A stretch of 64,000 bases of DNA from positions 32,001-96,000 of the IMG/VR virus record IMGVR_UViG_3300020416_000001. One strand, given 5' to 3'. Within the stretch, counting starts at the first letter, position 1; each line of letters begins with the position of its first letter. The DNA comes from a virus. Shown here in pieces: positions 1 to 28,300 of this stretch. Both the position numbers and the translations under genes were made by a program. The notes beneath the pieces were generated by a model. The model saw only the letters and a program-made list of their open reading frames with translations, did no database searches and was not told the origin of the DNA.

Positions 1-14
1 CGTTATTCAATACT

Positions 15-161
15 ATGGGACGCACTTACAAACGTAATGACACATACAAATCGAATAGAGCGAAATCGTTAAGAGAGAAACGAGACAATCACAAACAGAC
101 AGAGTACAAACCACCCTACCACAATCCGAGTAAAAAGTCAAGCAAGAAAAAAGATGAATGA
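15..161 (+). CDS. small basic hypothetical protein (48 aa, MGRTYKRNDTYKSNRAKSLREKR...)
   Basis: Manually translated ATG15-TGA161; overlaps next ORF start in typical phage coupled arrangement; below ORF-track cutoff. Confidence 0.6.
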   Translation: MGRTYKRNDTYKSNRAKSLREKRDNHKQTEYKPPYHNPSKKSSKKKDE

Positions 162-291
162 ACTGACTAAGGACTGGATCGATCTACTACTTGACGAACC
201 CGACGAGGATATGATACAATTAGACTATGAACAAAACGAACCCGAACCCTATGACGATTTAACAGAAATGACAATCATTTTCAATGACTAG
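154..291 (+). CDS. small acidic hypothetical protein (45 aa, MNELTKDWIDLLLDEPDEDM...)
   Basis: Manual translation; overlaps both neighbours by 8 nt. Confidence 0.55.
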   Translation: MNELTKDWIDLLLDEPDEDMIQLDYEQNEPEPYDDLTEMTIIFND

Positions 292-460
292 ATTTGAGTT
301 TCTAAATGAGTTAGTCGAGTCCAGTAGTTGCCCACCCTCGGAGTTAATCGAGTGGGGTCAGTTCTTGCTAGATACTGAACTACAACCCCACTTCAATAAG
401 CATCAAAAAATATTGATGTATCTCGTCGCTGAGGGGTGTTGCTATTGGGTGCCAACTTAG
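284..460 (+). CDS. hypothetical protein (58 aa, MTRFEFLNELVESSS...GCCYWVPT)
   Basis: Manual translation; coupled to upstream ORF. Confidence 0.55.
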   Translation: MTRFEFLNELVESSSCPPSELIEWGQFLLDTELQPHFNKHQKILMYLVAEGCCYWVPT

Positions 461-580
461 TCGGGTCGGTGCATATTAAAAAGGGAACCTAGTGATAACC
501 TACAACAGTATAGGGACGAGTATATTATCGAAATCGCATTTCGGGTCCCCCCATATACAAAAAAATTTTCCAAGTAAAAA

Positions 581-1000
581 ATGACCAAAAAGATCGATTC
601 GTACCGTGAAGAGTACAAGGAGTGGTTAGGGAGAGAATGGAAAGGACAGAAAGGAGGAGGATGCTTCAAACTCCTCTATGATTATGGTATTGCTACTGGG
701 TATCACACTTGTAAGGAGGATTACTCATTCAATCACCGATCATTCCTCAAGAACATCTGGGAGGACGAAGGATGGACTGCCATCAAGGTTTCCGAGATGG
801 GCGATGAGTTCGGTATCGAGGATCTGGAGAAGTATGACATATTGCTGATGAACTTAGAGAGTAATCGCCTCAATCACGGTGCTTTGTATCTTGGAGAGGG
901 ATTCGTATTACACCATAAGGCATTTGACGTATCACGGATAGAAAAAGTAAAACCCTATATAGGGCAGACACTATACGTGATACGAAAGAATGTCTCATAG
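581..1000 (+). CDS. NlpC/P60-like cysteine peptidase (lambda tail assembly protein K C-terminal-like)
   Basis: N-terminal GGGCFKLL catalytic-Cys context and DILLM...NHGALYLGEGFVLHH His motif typical of NlpC/P60. Confidence 0.7.
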   Translation: MTKKIDSYREEYKEWLGREWKGQKGGGCFKLLYDYGIATGYHTCKEDYSFNHRSFLKNIWEDEGWTAIKVSEMGDEFGIEDLEKYDILLMNLESNRLNHGALYLGEGFVLHHKAFDVSRIEKVKPYIGQTLYVIRKNVS

Positions 1001-1157
1001 GTATATACTTCCCATAGAGGAGGATGAAGAAAGTGGAGAACTTCTGCTCAATCTACCAGACGAGTTACTTGACGAAATGGGATGGTACTTTGGTGATGAG
1101 TTAGAATATTCCATTGAAGACGATCAACTTACACTTCGAAAGTTCAAAGAACCTTAG
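990..1157 (+). CDS. AbrB/MazE-like small DNA-binding protein (55 aa)
   Basis: Manual translation MSHRYILPIEEDEESGELLLNLPDELLDEMGWYFGDELEYSIEDDQLTLRK matches the swapped-hairpin pattern (LPxELLxxMGWxxGDELExxIEDxxLxL). Confidence 0.65.
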   Translation: MSHRYILPIEEDEESGELLLNLPDELLDEMGWYFGDELEYSIEDDQLTLRKFKEP

Positions 1158-6742: not shown

Positions 6743-7284
6743 TGGCACTAGGATTAGCAAAACCAGTAGCAAATCATAACGGTTTGCCCTGTACAGGACA
6801 CGGAATACCCATTCCGTCAACAATACACTCAACACAATCGTGTGGAACACCACCGATTAGGTTAGGAATTGTGATGAAAAACAAAACTTGTCTGTGGCCA
6901 CCCACGCCTTTAGTCTCTTTGACTGGTCTAAATCCCTTCAGAGCGATGGTTGTGGTCAATAAAATACCTATAATGATCAAAGGTGATGTGTTCACTCCTC
7001 ATTCGTCACCAACAACTAACATTATTAACTATTTGTGTCCTTGTGGTAAGGCAACCTGTATCATTCCTACTCCAACAATTTGCTCCCTACTGACTGCTGA
7101 AGATATTACAGGTGGTCATCCTAGGGTTCTTGATACTGGGTTCTACCAGTCTGTGAGAGCGTTTAAGATACCCATAGGTAGATTGGGTGATAACTTAGGT
7201 AAAGGCAGTCTACCGCCCGTCAGCATAGGGTATCCGTGTATGTCTAAGATTGCATACGGATCACCTAATGTCCTTGCGGGATAA
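6742..7284 (+). CDS. PAAR-like spike tip protein (T4 gp5.4 analogue)
   Basis: CTGHG, VNKIPIMIKGD..TPH, IPIGRLGD, C..KIAYGSPNVLAG motifs; position upstream of gp25. Confidence 0.8.
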   Translation: MALGLAKPVANHNGLPCTGHGIPIPSTIHSTQSCGTPPIRLGIVMKNKTCLWPPTPLVSLTGLNPFRAMVVVNKIPIMIKGDVFTPHSSPTTNIINYLCPCGKATCIIPTPTICSLLTAEDITGGHPRVLDTGFYQSVRAFKIPIGRLGDNLGKGSLPPVSIGYPCMSKIAYGSPNVLAG

Positions 7285-10310: not shown

Positions 10311-13300
10311 ATGGTTGCACATAACACAGCAATTCAGGTCTCCCAGAGACTGAACAGTCAGATTCCTGCGTTTATCAAGGAAGATCACGACCAGTTCGTC
10401 AACTTGCTGACAGAGTATTACAAGTCACAAGAGAAATCGGGTCGCCCATACGATGTTCTAAACAGCATCTTATCGTATATCGACATCGGATCAGGTGAAT
10501 TTGATCCTAATTTCTTGTCATCAGAGTCTGCTGTGTTGGAGGCGGTCAATCCTACACAGAATAAGATCGTTGCTGAGAATGTAAACTACTTCTTAGAGAA
10601 GGATGGTACGCTAAAGATTGATGATGAAGTTTTATATTATGAGTCTGTAACACATTCCCCTGACATCGTTTTCACTCCTGGGGTCAACAAACAAGAATTT
10701 GACAGAAAGATACAAGAATTCGAACCAATCAATAATCAGTTTGATAGTTCAAAGACAGAATTTAACTTAAGATTACTCGGTAGACCAGTTACACCTCAGT
10801 CTTCCAATCATCTTTTGGTGATTGTAAATGGCGATTTTATGTTCCCTGACAGGGATTACTTTGTTGAGGGTGACAGGATACGCTTTGTAAACCCTCCTGC
10901 AGCGACTACAGGGGCGTTGACAGGTGCTATCAATACCATTCGTTACCTTATCGGTTACACAAGCGTTCCAGTGCGTTCTCTGGACACCATCACAGTTGAT
11001 GCTGATGCAAAAGAATTTCATCTAAAATTAAATACTCAACCATACACTCCTCTTTCAACAGTTTCTTCAATCGTTGTTGTTAACAGAGTTGAGAAAAGAC
11101 CGTTCGAAGACTTCACAGTTTTTAACGATAAACTCATATTCAAGCAGGATGTATCACAAAATGCTACAATCGACGTAAGATCTGTCGAACTGATCGCTCC
11201 TGAATTTGGTTCAGGTGCTGCAGCAGTCTCCCAAATCGAAGGTGGATCTGTTAGTGACATCCTTGTAAAGAATGGTGGTCAAGGTTATAGAGTAAGTTTT
11301 GCTCCTAGAATCACTATTCAGTCAAATAAAGGTCCTGGTGAGGGTGCAACTGCGGAAGCACTCGTAAATGGCATCAAGAATACTCAACTCTTGTTCCCAG
11401 GTCAAGGATATTCATCTAACAATCCTCCTATCGTAGTTGTGGATGATCCTGCTGATTCAGAAGGCAGTAGAGCACAAATTACAGCAATCGTATCTGATGA
11501 AATCGAAGGAGTCTCGGAACTGCGTGTTACATCGTCTGGATCTGGATATGACCGCATTCCTTCAATTAAGTTTGTTAATCCTGGTGGTGCTACTATCACC
11601 GATCCTGTCGTCGAAGGAGGATCAATCAAAACAGGATCAATCTCAGTCATAGACAGGGGTTCAGGGTATTCATCTCCACCTTTGGTGTATATGGATCCTC
11701 CTACTGGAGATAATGCTATCAATGCTACTGCTATTGCAGTTCTTGATGATGACGGTAGGGTTGAACGTATTGACATCATTTCTAACGGTCAAGGATATGA
11801 AGGTGCTATCAGGGCAAGAATTGTTGACCCTGTTGGTGCACAGATCCTTGATGTGTCTTGTACTGGTGGTAGAGTTACTAATATTGAACTACTGACTGGT
11901 GGTAAGGGATACACAGATGCACCTTCTGTGTATATCGTTGATAATAGAAAGGACACTAATGGTCAACCTATTGGTGGTGAGGGTGCAACAGCAGTTGCTA
12001 CCATCTTCAACGGTGAGATCACTGACATCAATATCACTAGTTTCGGTAACGGATACTCTGATACTGAACCTCCTAAGGTCTTTATCGCTGCTCCTCCTGT
12101 ACCTGAGGCGTCTTGTGACGTTGGTTTTGGAGAGATTACTGGTTTCACTATCCACAGTGACGGATCAGGATACGAACCTTCAGCATTTACTGGAGTAAAG
12201 CGCGGAGTTTCTGGTGTTACATCATTTGACCAGAAAGGTCATCAAATTTACAGCAAAGAATCCAGTCTGGTACAGAGTTCTCACGCTAAGGGAGCAGTTA
12301 TTCATAATCTGGATAATCTTTTTGCTAAAGAATTATACAGAAGATTTGTAAATCAATATCTTCCTAATGCGGAAATTGACTACACAAAAGTCAACGCTCC
12401 GCAGATTATCAAGACTATTTCGGATTTCTACGCATCTAAAGGTACGAAGATCTCTACACAGTACCTCTTTAAGATACTTTACTCCGAAAATGTCGATGTT
12501 TCTTATCCTAAGGATGAGGTTATCAAACCATCTGCTGCAACTTGGAACGTAGATACGGTTCTAAGAGCAGAACTTTTAGAAGGATCTCCTGAGAATCTAC
12601 TCGACTCACAGTTGATTCAGTACATTGACGACGTTGATGTTAACGTTAGAGGTGCATCTGCACTGGTTGAGAACGTTATTGCGATCAATACTGGTGTTGG
12701 TACGGTGTATGAACTTGCAATTTCTGAAGAAACACTGCAGGGTGCATTTACAATTCCATATAAGACCACACTGGTTGAGGAACTTTCTACTACAGAGTCT
12801 ATTATTACAGTTGACTCTACGATTGGTTGGCCAGAGAGAAATGGTACAATCCGCATCAATGACGATGAAGTTGTACAGTACAAAGAGAAAACACTGAACC
12901 AGTTCATCGAATGTACTCGTTCTAAGAACGGTGTAGTCGAAGATTGGGACGCAGGTACTATTGTTCACTCTGACATCTTCGTTTATGTCAACCGTGGCAC
13001 TGATACTGAGTGTAAGTTGCGTGTTCTTGGTATTGCTGATGCAGAATCTACAGTTCTATCTGATAACGGTTCATATTACCTCCCTGGAGATAAACTAAAC
13101 GTTGCATCACTTGGTTCTACAACTAACGACAAGAGAATCACCTCTTGGTTGTACAACGTTAAGAAACTAATCAATATTACTCAGATCATCCCTGGTGGTC
13201 TCAATAATCAGACTGCAACTGTTACCTGCTCTAATAATCACGGTCTGTTGGTTGGTGACACTGTTACCATCTACGGTGCGAACCCAACTGTGTTCAACGG

Positions 13301-16300
13301 AACCTTCTTGGTCACATCCCGTATCAATAACACACAGTTTGAATATAACATTCCTGCACCTGCTCCAAACGAACCACAGGGTAACATTCTTCTTTCTGTT
13401 GACCTGAACAAAGGTAAGTCTCCTGAAGAAGGTATCAGCGTTGCTATCAGAGACTTTACTACTAACGTACAGAATACATTCTTCAATGATGATTATGCAT
13501 ATGTTGCATCTTCAGGTATTCCTAACTATGAAGTTGGTCCTTTCCTAGGATCTGCGCTTCTCCCTGGAAACCAACGTAAGTTGATCCGTATTCCTAGAAC
13601 TATCAATACGATCTCTAAGCGTACAGACACAACATTCGGTCCTATTGGTTCTTGGGTCAATGGTGTATCAACTTGGTCTTACAAGTCACAGAACAAGATT
13701 AAGTTTGGTGGAGTGACTGGAATCAGTATTGATGACCCAGGTAAAGGATATGACGCAGCAAACCCTCCTGTCATTGAGATCAATGGTGGCGGTGGTACTG
13801 GTGCTAAAGCAAGTGTTGTTGTTAATGGTGCTCTAAGTGAAATCCAAGTTTCTTCTGGCGGTACTGGTTATACTAGTTCTCCTCTTGTTTCCATTGTGGG
13901 TGGTGGCGGATTTGGTGCAACTGCTACTGCTGTTATTACTAACGGCGTAGTTTCCAAGATTCTCGTCGAAACCCCAGGTCAGGGTTACACTTCACAACCT
14001 GACGTTTCTATATCTGGTGGAGGTGGTACTGGTTGTGCTGCTACTGCACAGGTACGTGGTCCAATTCAGTCTGTAACTGTAGATTCTGCAGGAGCAGCAT
14101 ATACGGCATCTCCTGAGATCAAACTAAACTCTGGTGAGGGTGCTGTTGCACAACCTATCATCATTAACGGTAGAATCGTTTCTATCGCTATCATTGCAGC
14201 AGGAAGAGGATATACAACCGCTCCTGAGATTGTTATCAACGGAGATGGTTACGGTGCTATTGCAAGAGCAACTATCGGTAATGTTGGTGAGGATAGAGGT
14301 AAGGTTATCGGTGTTACTGTTGTAAACAGAGGTATCGGTTACACTACTGGTAATACAACTATCCGCTTGGAAGCGGTTGGTGAATTGGCAGAGTTCACTG
14401 CAAGTGTATTTGAGTGGACTAGAAACCTTCAAGATGAACTAGGACAGAACTTTGATACAGCACGTGGTTACGTGTTTGCAGGTTATAACACTCAGTATGG
14501 TGGTGAGTACGCACACCTTTCTGATCCTAAGCAATTAAGATACGTTCTTGGTGATAACGTATTCAAGAATCAGGCAACTCAACAGTTACAGGAACTTACA
14601 ACTGGATACCAACACTCACCTATTTTGGGTTGGGCGTTTGATGGTAACCCCATCTACGGACCTTATGGTTACATTGATGCTACTAACCAATCATCTGGTG
14701 TCAGAAGGATTCGTTCATCTTACAGAATCAAACCCGCACTTATCTTCGACGCTGCAACTAACCCAGAACCAGTTAGAGCAGATGGTCCTCTTCTTACTGA
14801 TTACATTGCGGGATCATTCATTGATGACTTCGAATATGTCTTCCAAGAGGGTGATCTAGACCAATATAATGGTCGTTTCTGTAAGACTCCTGACTTCCCT
14901 GAAGGTGTTTACGCATATTTCGTATCAATCGACGCATCTGATGCAGGTAATCCTGTATTCCCTTACATTTGTGGTCCTCAACTGTACTCTTCACCTGATG
15001 AGTGGAACTTCTCTCAGAGTGCTGTACAGACAAATATCCCATCTAACGTGGTTAGATTCCGTGATCCTTATGAGGATGTGGATATTGATATTGATCGTAC
15101 ACCTAACCAAGCAACTGACACTCTTGTTACTGAACTTGGTGAGGATCTTATCTTTGAAATCGAAGATACTAACAGAGACGGTCTTATTAATAACCTAGAA
15201 GATACCACACCTATTCAGATCACTGAAGAACCCGTACTACAATTATTTGATTACTACCCTAAAGTTTCTACAAGATCTGTTGTTGACATTGATATTGAGA
15301 CTACGACTAAATTCGAAGACGCTAAAGTTGACGGATTCGTGGTTGAGAACCCAGGTATATCCTATAAGGTTAATGATAAACTGTTCTTTGATAATGAAGG
15401 AACTGATGGTTTTGGTGCATCTGCAAAAGTTGAGGCAGTTAAGGGTCTAGACATTGCAGGTTACTCTTCTTATATGACTGGTGATCAACCAGTTGGTAAG
15501 ATTACCACTGCAACTGAGCACGAACTCCGTGTAAATGATCAGATTATTGTTACCAGTACACCTATTCTTGATGACACTAACAAGACTTTCAAGGTAAAAG
15601 TCATATCTGGTGTTGAAAGAGTTACTGTTGATCAGTCTGGTTTAGGATACTCTGAGGATATTCCTCCTACTTACGAGGTTATCACTAACAGTGGACAAGA
15701 TTTTAACATCGACATCGTTAGAGATGAAGGTGGTAGAGTAGAGAACGTTAATATTATCAACTCTGGTTCAGGATACGACGAAAACAATCCTCCTCAGATT
15801 CGTGTTTCTCATCCTCAGAGATTCAAGAAAGCAACTTACTTCTTATCATTCTTGAAAGAAGCAGGTTCTACTCTTACTATTAATGACATTAAAGTTGCTG
15901 ATGATCGTACCTTCTATGTTTGTGGTAAGACTGAGATTGCAGATGGTGATGTAGCAGGTATTCTTGCTAAGTTCAATAGTGATGGTAGATTGCTTTGGCA
16001 GCGTACACTTATTCCTACTGTTCCTCAGACTGCTGATAAGTCACTTCAGTGGAAATCACTTCATATTGAGAACAGTAATCCTCATAACATCTACGTTATC
16101 GGTGAGACAGTTCCTAATGTAGGTAATCTTACTCACAACCCAGATATTGTTGTTGCTAAGTATCAGTCAGGATTTAATAACGCTAACAACCCTGATGGTA
16201 TCATTCAGTGGCAGCGTGATATTGCAGGCATCTCTGGTTCTACTAGAAGAGACTATGCTTCTAGCATTAGACTTGACCAAGATGGTCGTGTAATGATTGC

Positions 16301-19300
16301 AGGTTATACAGACTCTAACGCAACTGCTCCTGACGATATGTGGGTTGCGTTGATGGATATTGACGGATCTATTATGGAGAAGCGTAAGATCGCTTCTGCT
16401 GCTGCTAGTGAGCATCTACATCAAGTCGAATGGAGAACTGACGATACATTCCTCTTCACTGGTATCTCTGACCCTGCAGGTGCTGCTAACATCATTCTTG
16501 GTGAAACATACTATGATACTGCAACTATCGAGGTTGTATGGTCTAAACAAATTGAATCTGCTGCTTATCAGTTTGCTGATCCTACATTTACTATTGATGA
16601 ATACGGTTCAGTTTATGTAACTGCAACTGCCATTGACACAAACGGTAAGAATTACGGTGTTCTTTATTGTAAGTTTGATAATCAGGACTATACAGCAGTA
16701 TCTGTGTCTAAGATGTACGTTCCTACAGGAAATTACACATCTTGTAAGAATGCAGGTGTTGCTTTTGATGTATTTGGTAATATTGACGTCAGTGCACTTG
16801 TTGAGAGAGATTTCAACGATGTTCAATCAGTTACTGCAAAAATTTCTTGGAACAGTGGCAACATTCTTTCTGCTGCTGAAGCAAAAGAAGATTCTGGTAT
16901 TGGTTATCATCCAACTTGTGTTGCAAATGACAACTCTGGTGATACTTTGGTTGCAGGTAATAAGGTTGAGGCACAGCAACTTGCAATCTTCAACTGGAAC
17001 ACTGCAGACAACCTCTTTGATGAAACATACAATGACACTCTAAAAACTGGTACTAACAAGCAGTGGTATGCAACTGGTAACGCTGTTATTGATAACACCA
17101 AGTTTTATAACGGTGCTTCTTCAGTAAAACTTGATGCACCTAACTCATTGCTCCTCCAATACAGCACAACTGCTGATGTTAGTGTTGAGTGGACAATGGA
17201 AGGTTGGTTTGCTCTTGGTGCTACTCAATATGCTGCACAAGCATCTAAACCTGAATTCTTCGGTATTTACTCTCAGTTAGCACAAGAAGTCAAGGTTGGT
17301 GTTGATGGTACTTCAGGTAGTGCTAATTTTGGTAAGATCTTCCTTGATCTAAATGGAACTACATCATATTCAACTGGTACAGCATTCTGGACTGGATTTA
17401 ACTCAGAGGCGTGGGTTCACGTTGCTATTTCTAAGGAACGCCCTGGTGTTGGTTCTTACATCTATCGTATATACGTCAACGGTGTAGAGGCACATTCAGT
17501 AACTAGTGCCAGTGTTGATGTCAATATGATGCAGGTAACTCTTGGTCCTATCTCAACTCCAAGTTCTCAGAACAACTGGATTGGTTGGGTTGACAACTTT
17601 GTGGTTACACCTTCTGCTAAGTACACAGATGCATTCACTGCAGGACTGATAACTGGTACAAACAAAGTTACTGAAGCATTCATCTATAAGATTGACAAGG
17701 ATAAGACAAAACTTGGAACATTTACTCTAAACGATGTAGAGACTGGACATACTCTTACAACTTCCGCCACAAGCAATTATACGTTTAATACCCAACCTGT
17801 ATCTGTTAACCCTTGGTTGATCGGTCCTGCAGGTATTCAGATTCTTGATTACTCTGATGTTGTATCAACTCACGTCCCTGGAGTTTATACCGTAACATCT
17901 ACTGATGAGGCGTGGGCAAGTAGAACTGCTACTATTCCTACACAAGGTGGTAAGAAACTACTCTTAACTACTAAGGTTATTCCTAAGTTCTATATTAGAG
18001 ACGCAAAATACACTAGTATTGACCTTGTTAAGACAATTACATTCAATCAACCTGCAACCTTTACAAAAGGAACTGTTCTTCAGCAGTATTCTACTATTGG
18101 TGGTAACGATGTTGTATCAGCATATGGTACTGTTGTTGAGGTTGGAACTAGTTCTTGTAAGATCGGTAAGATTATTGGTTCGTTTGATACCTCTAAACTT
18201 CTTAAATCTACCGCAGGTGATGTAAACGAGACAGATAAAGAGTTTACAGTTCTAACTACAACTCCTGTCTGGGAACAAAACCAGAACTATGATGTTGGTG
18301 ATATTGTTTATAGTAACGGTAAGATCTATACATCTGGTACTGCTGCAACTGCAGGTCCTATTGCTCCTAATCATACATCTGGTACTGTCTCTGATGGTAA
18401 CATCAACTGGGCATTTACAAGCGTTGCAGGTACCTTCTCAGTAGATTTGGCGAATAGCGTACACGGTTCAGGTACTCTTGCACAGTTTGCATCTTGGAAA
18501 CCTTTCAATGCTTCTGACTATACTATTAGAATCCAACAGATCTATGATGATTCAGACTTCATTAAGGGTGACACCATTGATGCTGATGCTGTTAACTTGA
18601 CATTTGATGTTGATGCAACTGGTAAGATCGCAACATTTGGTGGTCTTGTTGGTGTTAAGCAGTTCAATCTTCAGGCAAAACTCAATAAAGACGTTATTCC
18701 TTCACAGGGACTAACAAATACTGATCTTGTTTACTGCTCTGCTAATACCAGACATAACTTTGCAGCAACTGACATCATCTTTACTGAAGGATTCTCCACT
18801 AATGAATACAACGGTTCATTCTTTGTGGAAGAAGTATTCACTTCTAGAGACTTTACATACAAATTAAGAAGCACTGCTGTTCAGGATCCAACATTCTCAG
18901 GTTCAGGTTCTTCTGTTTCTAACGTTAATATCTTTGCTAAGCATCCTAAGTTCCTATTTGTTAGAGGACATCAGTATATCTTTGACCTTGACGATTCTTC
19001 TAACCTTGGATACTACCTATCATTCTCTAAAGATAACCAGTATAAACTTGAATATCCATTCATTAACATCATTAGAGAGGGTACACCTGGATTTACTGAT
19101 GATGATTCACCAACTCCATTGGTTAAATTCGTCATCAATGATGATGTTACTAACATTTCATACTACTTTGACCCATCTAGAACCACAGCAGACAACTCTC
19201 CTGTTGGTGAAGGGTCATTTATTGACGTTATTGAGTCTCCTTACCAAGGTACATTTACAATTTCGAAGGTTTCTTCCGATGGATTGGAGTTTGACTTCCC

Positions 19301-22300
19301 ACTTCTTGTTGAACCTGAGAAAACTATCGCTCCTGTTGGTAATAATGAGTTTGGAAACCCACGTTCCTTCTACTCTACAACCTCAATCAAGGCGATTGGA
19401 CCTATTGCAAGCATTAAACTGGTAAACCCAGGTGGATTCTATCAGAAATTACCTATTGTTACTGATATTGCATCTAATAGAGAGATTGAAAAGGTCCGTG
19501 TTAACAACGGTGGTACTGAATATGTCAACGGTGTGTACTATAACGTTCCTATTGCAGGAGATGGTGAAGGTGCAACCTGTAATATCACTGTTCAGGATGA
19601 CGGAGACTTCACTGGTGTCATTACTGATGTTGTTTTAACCTCTGCAGGTAAGGGTTACACCTTTGCATCGATTGATGTAGACGCTATCCCTGGAATTCTT
19701 GGTCCTCTTCTTGCAGGTTCAGGTGCACAACTAGAAGTTGTGATTCCTTCTGAGGGATCTGGTGCATCTGTATTCTTACAAGGTAAGTCAATCGGACGTA
19801 TCAAGAAACTTAAGAACAACGAATTTGGTTTCGGTTATTCTCACGACTATACTTTGAGACCTGAAATCACTTTCCCCGTGAACCTTCAGTTGTTTAATAC
19901 CGCTATTCTTGCAGAAATCAAGATTACAGACCCTGGTTCTGGTTATACATCAACACCTGCTGTTGTTATCGAAGGTGGTGGCGGTACAGGTGCTCAGGCA
20001 GAAGCAGTTATTAAGAACAATAGACTTTCTGAAGTTATTATTAAGGATCCTGGTGCAGGATACAGTTCTGAACCTACAGTTACACTTAAGTCTGAGTTCA
20101 ACTACGTTGTTAACATTGACTTAGGTTATCTACAGTTTAACTTCCCACACGGTATTACAACTGGTGCTGAGATCCAGTTGAGAGCAGAAGATCTTGGATC
20201 TACAGTTGGTATCCTTCCAAAACCAAGTTCTGCAGGTTTGGTTAGTTTGTCATCATCTCAGACTTACTATGCTATCGCAGGTGAGGCAAATGGTCTTGAA
20301 TCTGACCAACTTCGTATCTCACTGACTAAACTTGACGCTGAATCTGGTTCTTACATTACATTCTTGACACAGGGTGAAGGTAGACAGATTCTCTTGACCG
20401 AAGTATTTGGTGGTCAAGCAACTGCAATCGTTGAGACTTCAAGATTCCTTGAGGGTGAACTTGTTTATCAGGGTTCATCACTTGAACTTGCATCTGCTAC
20501 TGGTTATGTTTCTACTAACGAAGGTTGGCAGATCGGACCTAGAATCCTTAAACTTGAGAACTATGACGGTGTTTGGACTGCAGGTGAGCGTGTAACTGGT
20601 GAAGTTTCCCGTGCATCTGGTTTGATTGATAACCTTTCAATCGCTCGTGGTACTCTTAATATTGACTCTCTTACCAATACCCCTGGTCAGTTCATTGATG
20701 ACGTTGGTAAACCATCTGAAATTGTTCAGAAAATACAAGACTCTTACTTCTATCAGAACTTCTCTTACGTTATTAAGTCTGAAACACCTATTAACACTTG
20801 GAGAAAACCTGTTCTAGAAACAAACCACCCTGTTGGTTTCAACCTCTTCGGTGAACTAGCAATTACTGGTGGTAAGGATATTTCTGGAAGAAAGGTTGTA
20901 TCTGATCTAATCAAAGAGGTTAATATCAATGCGTTCACAAATATTAACCAAATCACATCATTTGCTAACGCACAACCCATTTATACTCAGTTCAACAACA
21001 CTGAGGTGCTCTTCAGACAGAAGAGACTGACTAACTCTGAGGAAATCCTTACTTCTATTGTTAAGAAGATCGATAACATTTCTGATGACTTTGACGGTGT
21101 TAGAACTCAGTTCCCACTGAATGTTGAGGGTAGTTCTATCACTGCAACTGAAGATCAGATGTTTGTGCTACTCAATGGTGTTGCACAGTCACCTGGAACT
21201 TCATTCTCTACATCAGGTCCTTCTATTGTGTTCTCTGAACCACCTAAGGCACCTTCTAGAATTAAGTTTAGAACTGTAACCTTTGCTCAGTTATTAATTA
21301 CTCGTATCACCTTTGATTTGATCGGTGGTATCTTCCCGCTATCTGGTAACAGAGTCAGAGGTCTTGTTTCTGAGGCAACTGCTACTGTAGTCGATTCTGG
21401 TACTGATTATATCGATGTAATTAATATTGAGGGAACTTTCCAAGCAGGAGAGGCAGTTCTTAATAGTGCTACTGGTTTCAACTCAACTATTGCTTCAAAC
21501 GGTGTAAGCGGTCTTTCATCTAAGACAATCTTCGAACAAGGTGAAAGAATTACTAACCTTGATGGTAAGTTTGCAATCATTGAAGAGAACAACCTTGATG
21601 ATGGTAATATCAACAATGAACTGGTTGTTTCTAGAACATCTGGTACTGCTGAGTATGAAACTGGTGAATTTGAGATCAAGTTCAACGATATAATCTATTC
21701 TGCAAGATCTAAGATTGCAGCAACAGTTTCTGCTATCGCTCCTTATCAGGATGCAGTTTCAGAACAGATTATTGACACTGTTGACCTTTCACCTTCATCT
21801 AGTTTCTTTGCTCTTGTATTCCAGAGAGTTCCTTCAATCACATATCCTAACGTTATCCTTGATAACATTGGAGATACAGTTATTAACCCAACTGAACTCT
21901 ATGATATTGAATCACCTAATAACCAAGACTTCCTAGATTTCGAATCTGTTCGTAACCAAGAGATTCGTTATGATGGTTTGACTGGTAATGACTTTGCACC
22001 TGGAACTAACATCAGACTTAAGAAGATCTACTTTGGTAACTCTTCTATTAGAACTGTACACGATACCCGTGCAAATAACGCTGCAGAGGCACTAGTTAAG
22101 AACGACAGATTCATCGCTGAAGAAGCGGTGGGAATGATGTTGAATTTCTACCCCTCCTTTACTGTTCCTACAGGTAAAGTTAATTGTGAGGACGACATCG
22201 TTGATATGCTCAATCTAATTGCTTGGCAACTTGAGCACGATGGTAACTCTGAGGTTTGGGATGCTGCAAACTTCTATGTTCAGAACAATACTGTATATCA

Positions 22301-25300
22301 CGTTGATGGACAGGTTGCTCAGACAATATATGCAATGAATGCAGCGAGAGATCTCGCTAACAAGTGTATTAATATGGTGGACATCACTACTGAGTACACA
22401 ACTCTGTCTCAGTGGAAGGATCTCACTATTACACCTGAATATGAAGTTGTAAGTAATAGTCACGGTGACGCTAGAACCTTGTTGCTTGCTAACAAGTGGT
22501 TTATTGCGTATGAGTCACTTCACTATGCTAAGACTCTAAACCCAGGTTATAACGTATCTGGTGGAGATGAGCATTGCCTCTCTGACATCGTGGATGTTGT
22601 TGAAGCACTTGCATACAACGTTGCACACGGTGGTAACGATTTCATTTGGGAAGCAACAGATAGAATCCTTCACTACGGTGTAACATCTGGTGATAGAGAC
22701 ACTATTGTCAACTCCTTTACAAAGGCAAAGGCAATGTCTCTCGATATTATGAGAAATATTGCTGTTACCAAGGCAGGATCACACGATTGGAATCAGGTAA
22801 CCATTTCTATCACTGCTGACCCTGCAAGTCCAACTTGTCAGGCAGTTGCTGCTTCTATCACAACATTGATGGATATTCTCATCAATGCTCTTGGTACAAC
22901 TGCATCCCCAGGCACTAGAGAAGCATTCCAAGCAGCAGTTACATCAACTGCTCCTCAGGCAGACTACTCACAAGGTAGAACTACGATTCCTAATGAAAAT
23001 GCTTGTGTTGCTCAGACATCTGCTGTTGCAAACTTCTTCAAAATCATTACTGATACTCTATCAGATCCTACTGGAGCAGATCCTGCTACCTATCAGTGGT
23101 CTATCAGCAATGTTCCTAGAATTGCACCTGCATACACCTTTGAAGCGGGTGAGACAATCCGTTCTATCAAGCATTCTTATAAGGACAAATCATCTGGTGG
23201 ATTCTTCAACTTCGGACAAGTTCTTAAGGGTGTCTCCTCTGGTGCTGTTGCAGAGATCATTGGAACCAATGCAGGTAGCAAATGGGTCTATACAAAGGGT
23301 GTTACTGGAGCATTCAACCCTGCTGAGTACATTACAAACTCAACAATCACATATAATAACGTTACAACTGATAAGTTGAACCCTGGAACTGGCACTGGAT
23401 CACTTGAATTTAGTGGTACAAGTTCTAGACTTAGACACGATTCCAATGCAGCATTTGCCTTTGGAACTGGTGATTACACAGTTGAACTCTGGATCTATCC
23501 TACAACTGTATCTGGTACACAACGTATTATAGATTTCAGAACTGCTTCAAGTAGCAATGCAGGTAGCATCTTCTTACAAGGAACATCAATCAAGTTTGGT
23601 ATTGGCGTAAATGACCATATCACTGGATCTGCTGCAGTTCCTACTGCTAATCAGTGGTATCACGTTGCTATCTCTAGAGCATCTAACGTAACTAAGATGT
23701 TTGTCAACGGTCAACCCGTTGGTTCTGATTACACTGACGCTTCTGATTATCCTAACTCTCCAATCACTGTCGGTGCATCTTGGGCAAATGGTGAGACTTT
23801 CACAGGTAATATGGACAACCTTATTATCAGAAAAGGAACCGCCAGCTACTCTAGTGGGTTTACTCCCCCTACTGTTTACGATTTCAAAGCACTTGACATC
23901 TCATTCGGTTTCAATGGTGAATCACCGTTCCCAATGGAACTCTCTGCAGTCTACGCAACATATCAACAGACTATCATCTCATCTGCTAACGCTGACGGTG
24001 TAGAACTCTGGCGTGAAGAGATTATGACAGAGGAGATTGATGTTTCTCGTGATGATTATAGAGATTGTGCTGATATTATTGATAAGAACCGTTTCTGGAT
24101 CGCAGAAGAAGCAGTTGGACGTATGAAGGAGAAATATCCTGCATTTGTCATCCCAGGTGACGGTGGTGGATCTACTCAAGGTACTGACAAGTGTGTTCGT
24201 GACACTAACTCCTTTATTATCCCTGCAATCATTAATGACCTTAAGTTAGGTGGTAACTTCCACACTATCGTTGCAGGTCGTGGATACTTAGAAGGATCTG
24301 GTGCTCTCAAGCACGTTAATGGTGAACTTCTACAGTCAATCTATACTTGGCGTGAAGTTGGTAAGATCTGTATTGACGTTATCACTAAAGATGAATCAGA
24401 TCTAACTGGTGAGTACACAAATAGAATTAGAGTTCCTAATTATTTCTCATCTCCTGCATCATCAGCAATTCAAACATTCATTTCTGACTTGATTGACAAT
24501 ATGTTGGAAGTTATGTCTCCAACAGGTCACAGATACAGAGATGGTGCTGATCTTCTTTACTTCAACCGTGGCGCGATTGCTGATGAAGCAGTCTCTATGA
24601 TGGAGCAAGAATGGAACGTTCTAATCAACTTTGTCCAACAAGATAAGATTGACATTCCTAGCAGAGAGAAATGTGTAAGAGATATTAGAGACCATATCGT
24701 TCCTGCTGTTGCAGGTGACTTGATCACTGGTGGTAACTCAAATATCCAAGGTATGATTGATTCATATCTCGATTCACAAAGCAATATTAACTATATCGAG
24801 ACTGAGTTGCTTGCAATGCTTGATGCTCTTGAGCACGTCAAGTTCCTTTCAAACAAAGCACTTCAGAACCTCTTAGTTGGTAGAAACGAAAACATTGCTA
24901 ACATTGCAGGTACAACACCTCAAACTATCGATGATTTCTATCAACTTCAGTATAGTGACCTAACAGCATACAGAAAAGAGTATGATGCTGCTGTTAATTA
25001 CGATCTAACTGGCGGTGTTATTACTGAGAGCACCTTCTATCCACCTGATCCTAAGATCTTCCAAGGTACACATAGAGCACTTGATTCTGCAAATATCATT
25101 GAAAGAAATGCTCGTACTATTGCAGGTGAGGCAGTTGACATTGTAACTAAGACATCAGCATTCAAGCACTACAACTTCAGAGTTCCTGGTGGTAAAGTTC
25201 ATTGTGAAGACGACATCGTTGATTTCATCAACTCTGTTGCACACGACTTGAGATTCTCATCTAACAGTGAGGTATATGATGCTGCAGCACTATATCTGAA

Positions 25301-28300
25301 TACAGATATGGGTCTGTCACACGTTACTGGTCAATCACAAGAGACAATCTACGCTTACAAGATGGCGAGAGATATGTCAATTCTCGCGATCCGCAACAAA
25401 CTTGGGTTTACTCCCTTCGAGGAAGCAACCACAGGTGGTGGCGGTGGACAAGGTGGAAATGCCATTGGTGGAGGAGTTCCTCGTGGTGATTATGATAATA
25501 ACGCTACTACTAATAAGGACTACGACGCAGGCAATGAAATAGAAAATAACTTGAGATTCATCGCTACTACTGCTGTAGGACGTGGATATGCTCAGTATCC
25601 TAACCTTACATTTGGTGGTTACGGTTATCAGTCTTGTGTCGATGATGTTATTGACATCCTTGAGGCAATGGCGTGGAACCTCAAGCACGGTGGTAATAAC
25701 AAGGTTTGGTATGCAACTGAGTTCTATATTACTGATGCTAACGCTATTCAGCATATCAACTCTCAGGCAACTGAAGTTAAGTACATCTTCGAGCAGGCAC
25801 GTGACATCGCTATTGAGGTGATGAGACAGCAGTTGGTCACTGTAAATGGTTACACAGAAGGGTATCCAGTTTACGATACTACTATTACTATTGACTCTAG
25901 CAGTTCACAAACTGGTCAGTTAACTCCTACAAACGCAACTTATAATCCTGCCACAGGTGATTTGGTCTTGACTAAGACTGGTCACGGTTTGGTAGCAGGT
26001 GACGCTGTACAGATTGCAACTTATGGATTGAAGTTTACTTGTGACTTTGATGGTAATCAGTCAGAGCATACTTATCCAAGACCTCTCGATCCATCAAACG
26101 GTGCTCTTCTCCCTGTCACATCTTCTAATAGTTCTACATTTACAGTCAACGTTGGAACAACTACTAACGTTAACTACGATGTAAGTAACGCAATCTACGA
26201 AGAAGCAACTGGTAATCTATTCCTTGACATCGGTTCTAACACCTTAGATGTTGGCAGACACATCAAGTTACCTGATAATGCAATTACATTCACTTGTACT
26301 AAGGATGGAAATGCTACTAACCATTCATATCCTCGTCCTAGTGACTATGCATCTGGTAAATCTCTAACTGTTCTTGAGATTGGTGATTCAGAATTTACTG
26401 CAACTAATGCAGCATACGTTCCTGCAACTGGTGTTCTAACTCTTACAGTTCCTAACCACGGGTTTGCTAACGGGGACAACGTTCAGATTGTTACTAACTC
26501 ACTGAACTTCACTTGTGATATGGACAACAACTACACTGTTCATTCATATCCTCGTGTATCTGACCCTGCTGCTAACAAGTATCTTCCTGTTGGAAACGTT
26601 ACTACAAATACATTCACTGTAAACGTTGGTACTACAGGCACTGTCAACTTCACACCTACGAACGTTGCCTACAATCCTATTACAGGAAATATGGTTCTGA
26701 CTCTGGGTACTGGTCACGGTCTTGTTACTGGATCACATCTTAAGATCCAACCTAACTCACTCACCTTTACTTGTGAGGAAGACGACAACGCAACCAACCA
26801 CTCATATCCTAGAACTACAACTACAACTCATACTGTTACCGATGCTGCTTACAACGGCACAACTGGTATTATGACGTTGACCATTCCTCAGCACGGGTTC
26901 TCTAATGGTGATCAAATCAAGATTGCTGATAACTCTCTAACCTTTAGATGTGCTGAAGATAACTATGCAACTGATCACACATATCCAAGAAGCACTGATC
27001 CTGCATCAGGATCTTGGTTGGAAATCTCTAACGTAACTGCTAATACCTTCAAGGTTCAGGTTCTCCTTTCTGACGGTATTCCTTCAACTAACGTTACTGC
27101 TCACAACTTCATTTCAGCATCATCTAGTGGTGTTACTTGGAAGAAGGATAGAGCATACGATGTTCCTCTCGAAGTTATTGCTGCTACTGCAACTACAGTC
27201 ACAGTCAACGTTCTTGCCTCTGGTAGAACTCCTTCAACCAACACAACTACACACACATTTGTCGCTGCCACACCAAATGCAATTTCTGCAGGCGGTAACT
27301 ACACTCACACATTTACCAGTGCAGTTGCGAACGGAATCAAGTTCAAGAACGGTAGAATTAAGGTTAACGTTAACCCTGCACCTACTAGCGAACAATATCC
27401 ACATACATTTGTATCTGCTGTATCTAATGCTGTACAGGGTGGTGGTAACTACAATCACACATTCATCAGTTCTACAACCAACTCAATCAGTTGGATCACA
27501 GGTGGTGGTGGAGCAACAAGATGTGCTACTCAAGCATCTTCTATCACAACATTGATGGGAATCACTATAGATCTGTTCAATAGTGGTACAAGTAACCCAC
27601 AAAACTACATCGACGGCATCTCCAGAACTCTGCCAGGCGAATGGCCACTGACAGGTGAGCGTGCTGCCGTTCGTGATCTGACTATCACATATGATCAGGC
27701 AGGATCTGGTCAGTGTAACGTTGAATCCTCAACTATCAGTTCTCTCTTCGACATCGTTATCGGTGTTGTCAAGGATGCTGCTGCAGGCAATGGTAGTTAC
27801 TTCACTAACCAAGGTATTAGTAGAAACGCACCTATACAGAACAACACCCTGCTATTTGGTGGTGGTGTCTGCTATAACGTGACATCTGCTGCTAACGTTC
27901 TTTATGATCTTCTTGAGGATACACTTGGAAGAGCACCTGAGATGTATCGTCAGGCATCACGTATCATTTCACTGAATGATCTCTACATCAATAGAGAGGC
28001 ATATTACAAAACTGTTAACCAATACTCTGGATATACAGGTGATATTTCATTCGGTGATGATATAAGAAAGGCATACATTTATGACCTATTGACTGATGGT
28101 AATGCTAAAACCGTCGAACTGATTAATAATTGGTTTGATGCCGAGGGCAACTTCATTGCATTCCCTAACATCTTCAGAACATATTTGATCTTCCACGCTC
28201 AGGCAACCACGGATATGATTAAGCATATCCTTTCTGGAACTGCTCCTGAACCTGGAACCTATAATTTGGAACCTCTCTACAAAGATAGAGAACTTCGTCC

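What the first reader, a model, noticed from the sequence alone, without database searches (positions are those of the whole stretch)
22060..27930. Nested (Russian-doll) topology of the globin-like units
Seen: the order is unit1-unit2-helix-helix, then unit3-helix (SSAIQTFISDLIDNMLEVM, no Cys), then unit4-unit5-unit6-[beta repeats]-helix-helix-helix. That gives six N-terminal parts and six closing helices. Inference: each domain is inserted in the G-H loop of the previous one, so the chain runs out and back as a stalk of stacked domains with the beta-repeat cluster at the tip. Such discontinuity would hide these domains from standard HMM annotation. If chromophorylated, it could form a linear pigment array.
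Basis: partly seen in the sequence, partly recalled or inferred. Interest (0 to 1): 0.7.

Follow-up and report, generated by a model that had tools for sequence, protein, structure and literature searches.

The report
Nested phycobiliprotein-like domains in cyanophage baseplate
A 6920-residue baseplate protein of a marine cyanobacterial virus holds seven copies of its host's light-harvesting pigment-protein fold, six of them inserted one inside another like Russian dolls, and most keep the pigment-attachment residues, so it can now be tested whether the virus particle carries pigment.

Summary
ORF 10311-31073 (6920 aa) lies in a T4-like cyanomyovirus baseplate module. It has units and closing helices in the order (( )) - LamG - () - ((( beta cluster ))), plus a seventh contiguous domain just past the stated end.

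The units are true relatives of phycobiliprotein beta subunits. The profile E-value is 1e-7. AlphaFold models align at Z 14.5-17, rmsd 2.0-2.6 Å, over 129-135 residues.

The nested pairing rests on three results:
- **Structure:** structural alignments span u2+hA, u1+hB, u5+hE and u4+hF, and weakly u6+hD.
- **Architectures:** 45 of 46 distinct architectures in about 270 relatives read as balanced brackets. Closed nests reach depth 4.
- **Innermost loop:** it holds 13-30, 127, 553, 763 or about 2200 residues, or one extra whole domain.

The Cys82/Asp85 equivalents are kept in 426 of 428 domain copies. The helix-H cysteine is kept in 419.

Among 50,697 phage records, only cyanophages carry the domain (317 records). 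Pigment binding and the stalk geometry were not shown.

This scan has already noted the same architecture on this stretch and in at least 15 other genomes. I found no paper describing it.

The parts
10311..31073 (+). Giant virion structural (gp7-position) protein, 6920 aa, directly downstream of the gp6-like baseplate wedge gene
   Evidence: ORF list and translation. PHROG phrog_701 'virion structural protein' matches full length. The neighbours are baseplate wedge genes. Homologues in isolates are annotated gp7, baseplate wedge initiator or structural protein.
22053..22382 (+). Unit u1 (helices A-G of the outer domain of nest 1), residues 3915-4024; CEDD motif
   Evidence: Unit HMM E 1e-38. 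VIA alignment of model residues 14..347 to phycocyanin beta 34..172: 129 aligned, rmsd 2.0.
22452..22772 (+). Unit u2 (helices A-G of the inner domain of nest 1), residues 4048-4154; CLSD motif
   Evidence: Unit HMM E 9e-26. VIA alignment of model residues 144..291 to PBP beta 34..172: 130 aligned, rmsd 2.1, Z 14.5-15.
22812..22910 (+). Closing helix hA (helix H of u2), residues 4168-4200, with N-terminal Cys
   Evidence: Helix HMM E 1e-13. It lies inside the 144..291 alignment. pLDDT 89-95.
22980..23078 (+). Closing helix hB (helix H of u1), residues 4224-4256, with N-terminal Cys
   Evidence: Helix HMM E 6e-10. Alignments of model residues 4-14..346-347 to whole PBP beta chains (8xf1, 7lix_B, 8u0f_C, 1lia_B) need this helix.
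23454..23828 (+). Laminin_G_3 / concanavalin-like domain between nest 1 and domain 3 (residues 4382-4506); not part of a nest
   Evidence: Pfam PF13385, E 2.7e-19.
24036..24521 (+). Domain 3: unit u3 (residues 4576-4694, CVRD motif) with its adjacent Cys-less closing helix hC (4710-4737)
   Evidence: Unit HMM E 5e-35 and helix HMM E 8e-7. It holds the best Pfam PF00502 stretch. It aligns over its full length with the other contiguous domains.
24516..24884 (+). Unit u4 (outermost of nest 2), residues 4736-4858; CVRD motif
   Evidence: VIA alignments of model residues 1..1139-1146 to allophycocyanin 8or7_A (Z 14.8, rmsd 2.3), ApcE 4xxi_A (Z 14.7) and 7eyd_g9 (Z 15.0).
25056..25409 (+). Unit u5 (middle of nest 2), residues 4916-5033; CEDD motif
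   Evidence: VIA alignment of model residues 186..1087 to PBP beta 34..172: 135 aligned, rmsd 2.4-2.6, Z about 15.
25500..25844 (+). Unit u6 (innermost of nest 2), residues 5064-5178; CVDD motif
   Evidence: Unit HMM E 4e-37. In compact orthologues it is followed after 13-30 aa by the hD orthologue. A weak VIA row spans model residues 341..1026.
25908..27500 (+). All-beta repeat cluster (residues 5200-5730) inserted in the G-H loop of u6, the tip of the nest
   Evidence: AF2 secondary structure is all strands, pLDDT about 65-89. This stretch is absent in the compact orthologues and replaced by 127, 763 or about 2200 aa, or by one extra domain, in others.
27498..27596 (+). Closing helix hD (helix H of u6), residues 5730-5762
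   Evidence: Helix HMM E 6e-11. pLDDT 72-91. Pairing is by elimination, by the compact orthologues and by the 341..1026 row.
27690..27788 (+). Closing helix hE (helix H of u5), residues 5794-5826
   Evidence: It forms the end of the 186..1087 alignments.
27846..27938 (+). Closing helix hF (helix H of u4), residues 5846-5876
   Evidence: It forms the end of the 1..1139-1146 alignments.
27924..28385 (+). Domain 7: contiguous unit u7 plus its own closing helix (residues 5872-6025); lacks both cysteines
   Evidence: Unit HMM E 4e-14. hhalign against the complete-domain profile A6: 97.9%, E 4e-13, 144 columns including helix H.

Best explanation
Residues about 3915-6025 of the giant gp7-position baseplate protein consist of seven domains homologous to the globin core (helices A-H, without the X-Y hairpin) of phycobiliprotein beta subunits. 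Six of the seven are arranged by repeated domain insertion into the G-H loop. In nest 1, u2+hA sits inside u1...hB. In nest 2, u6...hD sits inside u5...hE, which sits inside u4...hF. A 530-residue beta-repeat cluster lies in the innermost loop. Domains 3 and 7 are contiguous. The chain therefore runs outward through helices A-G of successive domains and returns through their H helices in reverse order. Each nest is a closed excursion whose two ends meet at its base, with a variable module at its tip. The innermost G-H loop is an evolutionary insertion hot spot. It lets the phage swap or enlarge the displayed module, probably a host-surface-contacting part of the baseplate periphery, without disturbing the helical scaffold. 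The topology is shown by prediction and by comparison. The display function is an inference. The near-invariant Cys-x-x-Asp on helix E and the Cys at the start of helix H correspond to the beta-82 and beta-153 bilin sites. They point to a retained cofactor site, most simply bilin, and I rate that at roughly one in three.
For: **Homology to phycobiliproteins**
- Pfam PF00502 scores 31.2 bits against a cut-off of 22.2.
- A profile of 27 contiguous domains hits beta subunits in the PDB at E 1.1e-7, with 148 distinct PDB sequences at E<=1; all 60 listed are phycobiliproteins. PslxvPGGN aligns with PQLIAPGGN and CxxD with C82-x-x-D85.
- All top Foldseek hits are PBP beta chains.

**Pairing in the AF2 models**
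- Nest 1 (pLDDT 80.8): model residues 144..291 align to beta 34..172 with 130 residues at rmsd 2.1. Residues 14..347 align to 34..172 with 129 residues at rmsd 2.0.
- Nest 2 (pLDDT 69): residues 186..1087 align to 34..172 with 135 residues at rmsd about 2.5. Residues 1..1139-1146 align to APC, ApcE and PE alpha at Z 12.6-15. Residues 341..1026 give one weak row.
- A unit alone has only about 110 residues, so 129-135 aligned residues require the distant helix.

**Comparative evidence, independent of AF2**
- 45 of 46 distinct unit/helix strings are valid bracket words. The summed log10 of the chance values is -14.5 if the strings are treated as independent, which they are not.
- Closed nests reach depth 2 in 57 proteins, depth 3 in 78 and depth 4 in 10. 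A unit and its helix lie up to 3825 aa apart.
- The tip gap is 13-30, 127, 553, 763 or about 2200 aa.
- L060 has one extra unit and one extra helix exactly between the u6 and hD orthologues.

**Site conservation** in 428 non-redundant pairs: Cys82-equivalent 426, Asp85-equivalent 426, helix Cys 419, Asp39-equivalent about 90%.
Against: - All structural evidence is predicted. No coordinates were available, so contacts were read from the first and last aligned residues only.
- pTM of 0.50-0.62 leaves inter-domain geometry open.
- The u6-hD pairing has only one weak structural row (Z 6.2, to an unrelated helical protein). It otherwise rests on elimination and on the orthologues.
- AF2 may favour non-crossing completions of a fold it knows well.
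- The bracket statistics count related proteins. Many strings are short of helices because Cys-less closing helices escape the helix HMM.
- Pairing of helices in trans between the several copies of the protein in a baseplate cannot be excluded.
- For the cofactor: the B-E loop is 7 residues shorter than in PBPs and lacks the Arg77/78 segment. The Arg84 position is Asp in 243 of 428 copies. This genome record shows no cpeT and no heme oxygenase.
Confidence: 0.82

Rival explanations
1. The closing helices do complete the units, but not in nested cis order. They pair in parallel order (first unit with first helix) or are swapped between neighbouring copies of the protein in the baseplate, which would make an interlocked oligomer.
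For: Helices hA-hF are too alike and too short for sequence similarity to assign partners. The middle pair u5-hE is the same in the nested and the parallel schemes. Monomer AF2 cannot see swaps in trans.
Against: The VIA ranges fit the nested scheme: 144..291 with 14..347, and 1..1139-1146 with 186..1087. They do not fit the parallel scheme, which would give 14..291 aligned from chain residue 34, or 1..1022. In compact orthologues only 13-30 aa separate the innermost unit from the next helix, a normal G-H loop. The extra unit and helix in L060 lie adjacent at the tip, not at opposite ends.
Confidence: 0.08
2. The domains are an apo, purely structural scaffold. The phycobiliprotein fold was captured from the host and kept only as a rigid helical spacer. 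The conserved Cys and Asp would then serve stability (disulfides in oxidising seawater, helix capping) or bind a metal, not bilin.
For: The B-E loop is shortened and the Arg84 position is mostly Asp. Domain 7 has lost both cysteines and domain 3 the helix cysteine, yet both persist. No cpeT or ho1 is found in this record. Other giant proteins hold up to 34 tandem copies with Cys-less closing helices. Other virion proteins of this genome were noted to carry metal-site modules (unchecked).
Against: The Cys and the Asp three residues later are kept in 426 of 428 copies at 20-30% overall identity, and the Asp39 equivalent in about 90%. That is the exact bilin-site geometry of PBP beta subunits. 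In 9 of the 428 pairs, among them the u3 orthologues, the unit cysteine is kept though the closing helix has none, which argues against an obligatory intradomain disulfide. The domain occurs only in cyanophages among 50,697 phage records. This phage encodes a PcyA-type bilin reductase.
Confidence: 0.55
3. The nesting is an artefact. The 'closing helices' would be unrelated amphipathic helices forming their own bundle, and the units would be truncated six-helix domains.
For: Each helix is only about 30 aa. Its match to PBP helix H is weak at the sequence level (1.9 bits).
Against: Aligned lengths of 129-135 at rmsd 2.0-2.6 Å need helix H. Contiguous unit+helix domains exist and match PBPs end to end in the models. 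The numbers of units and helices match within runs (()) across hundreds of proteins. The helix HMM finds no copy elsewhere in the 6920 aa.
Confidence: 0.03

Closest known systems
Phycobiliprotein beta subunits (CpcB, CpeB, cryptophyte PE/PC beta; Pfam PF00502)
   Same: They share the globin-type core of helices A, B, E, F', F, G and H (Z 14.5-17, rmsd 2.0-2.6 Å over 129-135 residues). The shared sequence motifs are PxLxxPGGN, C82-x-x-D85 and Asp39, plus a Cys at the start of helix H where beta-153 lies.
   Different: The phage domains have no X-Y N-terminal hairpin, the alpha/beta dimerisation element; alignments start at about chain residue 30-34. The B-E loop is seven residues shorter. Arg84 is mostly replaced. 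The domains are embedded seven times in a 6920-aa virion protein, six of them split by insertions of 160 to over 1000 residues in the G-H loop. No evidence of bilin or of trimer or rod assembly.
ApcE (core-membrane linker) bilin-binding PB domain, PDB 4xxi
   Same: It is a phycobiliprotein-type domain built into a very large multidomain polypeptide and interrupted by an inserted loop. It is structurally close to the outermost domain u4+hF (Z 14.7, rmsd 2.4, 118 aligned). From my own knowledge, ApcE attaches its bilin without a separate lyase. That would be a precedent for a phage lacking cpeT.
   Different: ApcE has one PB domain. Its insertion (the PB loop) lies between helices B and E, not G and H, and is a loop rather than whole domains. 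It is a phycobilisome component, not a virion protein.
Discontinuous (inserted) domains in general
   Same: A parent fold is completed by segments on both sides of an inserted domain whose N and C termini lie close together.
   Different: Here the same fold is inserted into itself repeatedly. Depth is 3 in this window and 4 closed levels in relatives. Up to 3825 residues separate the two parts of one domain. From memory, self-nesting to this depth is very rare among solved structures. I did not check this against a structure classification.
Globin-coupled sensor and RsbR-type sensor globins (e.g. 4zva, 3zta, 2bnl)
   Same: The globin fold is used as a module within larger signalling or structural proteins; Z 8-11.6 to the models.
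   Different: They score much lower than the phycobiliproteins, show no shared sequence motifs, and bind heme or no cofactor.

Membership tests
Phycobiliprotein family (Pfam PF00502, Phycobilisome protein) | Sequence match to the family profile above the curated threshold | tested here: met
   The half-protein scores 31.2 bits against a cut-off of 22.2, but as a sum of sub-threshold stretches; the best single unit reaches E 7e-4. A profile of 27 contiguous domains hits PDB beta subunits at E 1.1e-7. The relative P0221 scores 44.8 bits.
Phycobiliprotein family (Pfam PF00502, Phycobilisome protein) | Globin-type core of helices A-B-E-F'-F-G-H | tested here: met
   Predicted only. Z is 14.5-17, rmsd 2.0-2.6 Å, with 129-135 of 139 core residues aligned for u1+hB, u2+hA and u5+hE. 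For u4+hF, 118-134 residues align at rmsd 2.3-2.8 Å (Z 14.7-15.0).
Phycobiliprotein family (Pfam PF00502, Phycobilisome protein) | N-terminal X-Y helix hairpin that mediates alpha/beta heterodimer formation | tested here: not met
   The unit profile begins at PBP residue about 33. The tight structural alignments start at chain residue 30-34. Only 15-25 residues precede helix A in each unit.
Phycobiliprotein family (Pfam PF00502, Phycobilisome protein) | Bilin-attachment Cys82 with Asp85 on helix E | tested here: met
   The Cys and the Asp three residues later align with C82 and D85. They are present in u1-u6 and absent in u7. They are kept in 426 of 428 non-redundant copies. The Arg84 position is Arg in only 111 of 428.
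Phycobiliprotein family (Pfam PF00502, Phycobilisome protein) | Second beta-type site: Cys153 in the G-H loop / start of helix H, with Asp39 | tested here: inconclusive
   Asp39 aligns in the strong stretch, and its equivalent is Asp in about 90% of copies. The helix cysteine aligns with Cys153 only in a weak second stretch of 1.9 bits. Five of the seven domains here have it.
Phycobiliprotein family (Pfam PF00502, Phycobilisome protein) | Covalently bound bilin; assembly into (alpha-beta)3 discs | not testable with these tools
   This needs spectroscopy or mass spectrometry of virions or recombinant protein.
Nested (discontinuous) domain insertion | Segments on both sides of the insert together form one copy of the parent fold | tested here: met
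   The VIA ranges are 14..347 and 144..291 for nest 1. For nest 2 they are 1..1139-1146, 186..1087 and, weakly, 341..1026. These are predicted structures.
Nested (discontinuous) domain insertion | Relatives exist in which the parent domain is contiguous or carries inserts of other sizes at the same loop | tested here: met
   Orthologues have 13-30 aa between u6 and hD. Others have 127, 553, 763 or about 2200 aa, or one extra domain. There are 157 contiguous pairs among the 428.
T4 gp7-type baseplate wedge protein | Position after gp6 in the baseplate module and homology to gp7 | tested here: inconclusive
   The position is met: the gp6-like gene at 8208-10292 lies directly upstream. PHROG names are 'virion structural protein' and 'baseplate wedge subunit'. 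Isolates annotate homologues as gp7 or baseplate wedge initiator. No direct comparison with T4 gp7 was made.

The most novel reading that the evidence does not exclude
The nested phycobiliprotein-like domains carry covalently bound bilin in the virion, made with the phage's own PcyA-type reductase and attached by the host's lyases, a phage lyase, or autocatalytically. The domains would then act as a light sensor on the baseplate or fibres that gates adsorption. This would explain the long-unexplained light-dependent adsorption of cyanomyoviruses, and also why cyanophages keep bilin synthesis and cpeT genes. Anecdotal support comes from four isolates. P-HM2, P-HM1 and S-PM2 need light to adsorb (PMC6628666) and carry 6, 6 and 11 copies of the domain plus cpeT. 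P-SSM2 adsorbs in the dark and carries neither.
Probability: 0.15. Interest if true: 0.95.

Novelty: new variant of a known kind. Interest (0 to 1): 0.72.

Why it matters
- **Protein architecture.** This is an unusually deep case of a fold inserted into itself. It reaches three levels here and four in relatives, and the two parts of one domain lie up to about 3800 residues apart. It shows how a phage can evolve giant modular proteins: it keeps a helical scaffold and exchanges whatever sits in the innermost loop.
- **Annotation.** Discontinuity and divergence together leave only a composite, sub-threshold Pfam signal. Bracket-style parsing of half-domains recovers the architecture.
- **Phage biology.** The fold comes from the host's light-harvesting proteins. 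It is found only in cyanophages among 50,697 phage records, and it keeps the bilin-site residues almost without exception.
- **A testable question.** One can now ask whether cyanophage particles carry pigment. That bears on two open problems: the mechanism of light-dependent adsorption, and the purpose of phage bilin genes.

Tried and rejected
- **Foldseek alone.** E-values were only about 1e-2 and no ranges were given. VIA-align settled both the fold and the ranges.
- **Pairwise similarity of the six helices within the window.** The scores were too low (18-53) to assign partners. Only the comparison with L060 was informative.
- **Limits of the helix HMM.** It misses Cys-less closing helices, such as the hC type in many orthologues, the u7 helix and the long tandem arrays. 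Many strings therefore look short of helices. I did not count those as evidence. One string, P0103, starts with a helix, probably because an upstream unit was missed.
- **Searches that could not run.** The source organisms of the tandem-array proteins therefore remain unknown.
- **Jia et al. 2010 on light-dependent adsorption.** The paper is not held. I rely on its citation in PMC6628666.
- **Literature searches.** Searches for phycobiliprotein-like domains in cyanophage virion proteins found nothing.
- **CpeT.** Searches of the own genome with PF06206 and with the P-HM2 and S-PM2 CpeT proteins found nothing. Heme oxygenase was also absent. The record is 94% complete.
- **Complex prediction.** Not used. 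Any H-type helix would probably complement any unit through likeness to solved phycobiliproteins, so it could not separate nested from parallel pairing.
- **Intradomain Cys-Cys disulfide.** I considered it as the reason for the two cysteines. It is unlikely, because the u3 orthologues keep the unit cysteine without a helix cysteine. No coordinates were available to measure the distance.

Full report
**Context.** The window is the structural module of a T4-like cyanomyovirus.
- All large ORFs lie on the + strand.
- The neighbours match baseplate wedge, PAAR, tail-fibre connector and head-tail adaptor families.
- DNA similarity is only to Synechococcus and Prochlorococcus phages.
- The finding lies inside one ORF, 10311-31073, which translates to 6920 residues. 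It sits directly after the gp6-like gene and matches the 6136-position PHROG 'virion structural protein' from end to end.
- Homologues in isolates are annotated gp7, baseplate wedge initiator, structural protein or short tail fibre.
- The stated span, 22060-27930, corresponds to residues 3917-5874.

**Observation.** Aligning the seven candidate units gives a common pattern: D-A-x-x-[IL]-x-x-N-x-x-F-I-A-x-E-A-V ... P-G-G-x(2-3)-C-x-x-D ... G-G-N .... The six closing helices share C-x(4)-S-x-I-x-x-L-x-x-I, and only hC lacks the cysteine.
- HMMs built from these alignments and iterated on 120 homologues find exactly seven units and six helices in the 6920 residues, and nothing elsewhere.
- A seventh unit begins at the end of the span. 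Profile-profile comparison shows that it is a complete, contiguous domain with its own Cys-less closing helix (97.9%, E 4e-13, 144 columns).

**What the units are.** They are relatives of phycobiliprotein beta subunits.
- Pfam PF00502 (Phycobilisome protein) scores 31.2 bits on the C-terminal half, against a cut-off of 22.2. This is a sum of stretches, none of which is significant alone. Single units reach E 7e-4 at best.
- A profile of the seven units against all PDB sequences returns 54 hits, of which 50 are phycobiliproteins (best E 0.0016).
- A profile of 27 contiguous unit+helix domains, from this window and from related viral contigs, reaches E 1.1e-7 on phycocyanin beta. It gives 148 distinct PDB sequences at E<=1; all 60 listed are phycobiliproteins. 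The alignment pairs PslxvPGGN with PQLIAPGGN, the unit Cys-x-x-Asp with Cys82-x-x-Asp85, and the first-helix Asp with Asp39. A weak second stretch puts the closing-helix Cys on Cys153.
- The domain lacks the X-Y hairpin, and its B-E loop is seven residues shorter.

**Is the topology nested? Predicted structures.** I folded residues 3905-4262 with a 25-row alignment (pLDDT 80.8, pTM 0.62). I folded residues 4735-5880 with an 18-row alignment (pLDDT 69.0, pTM 0.50). Foldseek puts only phycobiliprotein beta chains at the top. VIA-align gives Z 14.5-17 and, most usefully, the aligned ranges.
- **Nest 1.**
  - Many chains align residues 34..172 to model residues 144..291, that is u2+hA (130 residues, rmsd 2.1).
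  - Others align 34..172, or the whole chain, to model residues 4-14..346-347, that is u1+hB (129-146 residues, rmsd 2.0-2.7).
- **Nest 2.**
  - The common row is model residues 186..1087 against chain 34..172, that is u5+hE (135 residues, rmsd 2.4-2.6).
  - Rows spanning 1..1139-1146 give u4+hF. They match allophycocyanin 8or7_A (Z 14.8), the ApcE bilin domain 4xxi_A (Z 14.7) and 7eyd_g9 (Z 15.0).
  - One weak row spans 341..1026, which can only be u6 helices plus hD because the stretch between them is all-beta.
- A unit alone has about 110 residues, so the aligned lengths require the distant helix.
- The ranges expected for parallel pairing do not appear. Those would be 14..291 starting at chain residue 34, or 1..1022.

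**Is the topology nested? Comparative evidence independent of the folds.** I wrote each homologue as a string with '(' for a unit and ')' for a closing helix.
- Across 120 full-length homologues, 79 viral loci and 149 library representatives, 45 of 46 distinct strings are valid bracket words. Typical forms are (), (()), (-[1270]-()-[203]-) and ((-[2637]-(())).
- Closed nests of depth 2, 3 and 4 occur in 57, 78 and 10 proteins. A unit can lie 3825 residues from its helix.
- The gap at the tip of nest 2 is 13-30 residues in compact orthologues, a normal G-H loop. In others it is 127, 553, 763 or 2206-2227 residues.
- In locus L060 the orthologues of u3, u4, u5, u6, hE, hF and u7 are recognisable by score. 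One extra unit and one extra helix lie side by side exactly between the u6 and hD orthologues. Insertion of a whole domain into the innermost loop predicts this; parallel pairing does not.
- Caveats: these proteins are related, so the chance figure (summed log10 p of -14.5) is only illustrative. Cys-less helices also escape the helix model.

**What is not shown.**
- No coordinates were returned, so contacts are inferred from the ranges.
- pTM is low, so a straight stalk of stacked domains is unproven.
- Pairing in trans between subunits cannot be excluded.
- The beta cluster is at the topological tip. Where it sits in the virion is unknown.

**Cofactor question.** In 428 non-redundant unit-helix pairs the conservation is as follows.

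| Position | Copies conserved |
|---|---|
| Cys82 equivalent | 426 |
| Asp85 equivalent | 426 |
| Asn of G-G-N | 422 |
| Helix Cys | 419 |
| Asp39 equivalent | about 90% |

- Overall identity between copies is only 20-30%.
- The Arg84 position is Asp in 243 copies and Arg in 111. In this window u3 and u4 have C-V-R-D.
- In 9 of the 428 pairs, among them the u3 orthologues, the unit Cys is kept although the closing helix has none. This argues against an obligatory disulfide between the two cysteines.
- The phage record is 171.7 kb and 94% complete. It encodes a PcyA-type phycocyanobilin:ferredoxin oxidoreductase. It has no detectable cpeT or heme oxygenase.
- Pigment binding is therefore plausible but unproven. 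I rate it at about one in three.

**Distribution.**
- The contiguous domain finds 317 of 50,697 phage records by tblastn, and all 317 are Synechococcus, Prochlorococcus or 'Cyanophage' records.
- Against 1.84 billion representative proteins the profile finds 1384 proteins at E<=1e-3 and 976 at E<=1e-10. All 150 listed are long (730-6982 aa). By my unit HMM, some of them hold up to 34 tandem copies.
- Pfam offers no other family for them.

**A possible link to phenotype.** Light-dependent adsorption of cyanomyoviruses is unexplained. [quoted passage not shown]

| Phage | Adsorption | Domain copies | cpeT | Bilin reductase |
|---|---|---|---|---|
| P-HM2 | needs light | 6 | yes | yes |
| P-HM1 | needs light | 6 | yes | yes |
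| S-PM2 | needs light | 11 | yes | no |
| P-SSM2 | adsorbs in the dark | 0 | no | yes |

Four phages are an anecdote, not a test.

**Prior knowledge.** Text searches found no paper on phycobiliprotein-like domains in cyanophage virion proteins. Within this scan, the same architecture was noted on this stretch and in at least 15 other genomes. One of those notes states that the domains occur only in phages with cpeT. The present record is a counter-example, unless the gene lies in the missing 6%.

**Verdict.** The finding is a new variant of known kinds, namely the phycobiliprotein fold and domain insertion, and it carries a testable and potentially important functional question.

Noticed in passing
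window 25908-27500 (residues 5200-5730): The beta cluster reads as five 'first halves' (HG..GD..L-x-F-T-C-x-x-D-x(5)-H-x-Y-P-R) followed by five 'second halves' (x-H-T-F-[VI]-S-A...), so it may itself be nested, as other first readers noted. The AF2 model is all-beta at pLDDT about 65-89. VIA gives Z 6-8.3 to the phage phi92 endosialidase (4hiz_A), to E1 FCCH barrels and to FAD-binding barrels.
   Followed up: partly
outside the window: G000:C1:106419-107090 (L080:1405-2076): The phage encodes a PcyA-type phycocyanobilin:ferredoxin oxidoreductase (NCBIfam NF002760, 220.5 bits against a cut-off of 206). No cpeT and no heme oxygenase were found in the 94%-complete record.
   Followed up: yes
NC_015284 (P-HM2), NC_015280 (P-HM1), NC_006820 (S-PM2), NC_006883 (P-SSM2): The domain profile finds 6, 6 and 11 copies in P-HM2, P-HM1 and S-PM2, spread over two giant ORFs per phage, and none in P-SSM2. 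cpeT follows the same pattern. Bilin reductase is present in P-HM2, P-HM1 and P-SSM2 but not in S-PM2.
   Followed up: partly
proteins P0123, P0124, P0127 (library representatives): These giant proteins of 4800-6400 aa carry 30-34 tandem copies of the domain, spaced about 160 aa apart. Their closing helices lack the Cys motif.
   Followed up: partly
window 14427-14936, 18270-18353, 30738-30941: The same giant protein has other modules. There is a YHYH domain at residues 1373-1542 (E 7e-30), a weak CBM_5_12-like stretch at residues 2654-2681, and a weak Ig_3-like stretch near the C terminus at residues 6810-6877.
   Followed up: no
window 6742-7284: A 180-aa ORF between the 1143-aa baseplate protein and the gp6-like gene matches a PAAR-motif PHROG (E 7e-16).
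   Followed up: no
loci L032, L036, L039, L040, L048, L049: In these relatives the innermost loop of nest 2 holds about 2200 residues instead of 553. In L008 and L025 it holds 763, and in L015 it holds 127. The content of these inserts was not examined.
   Followed up: no
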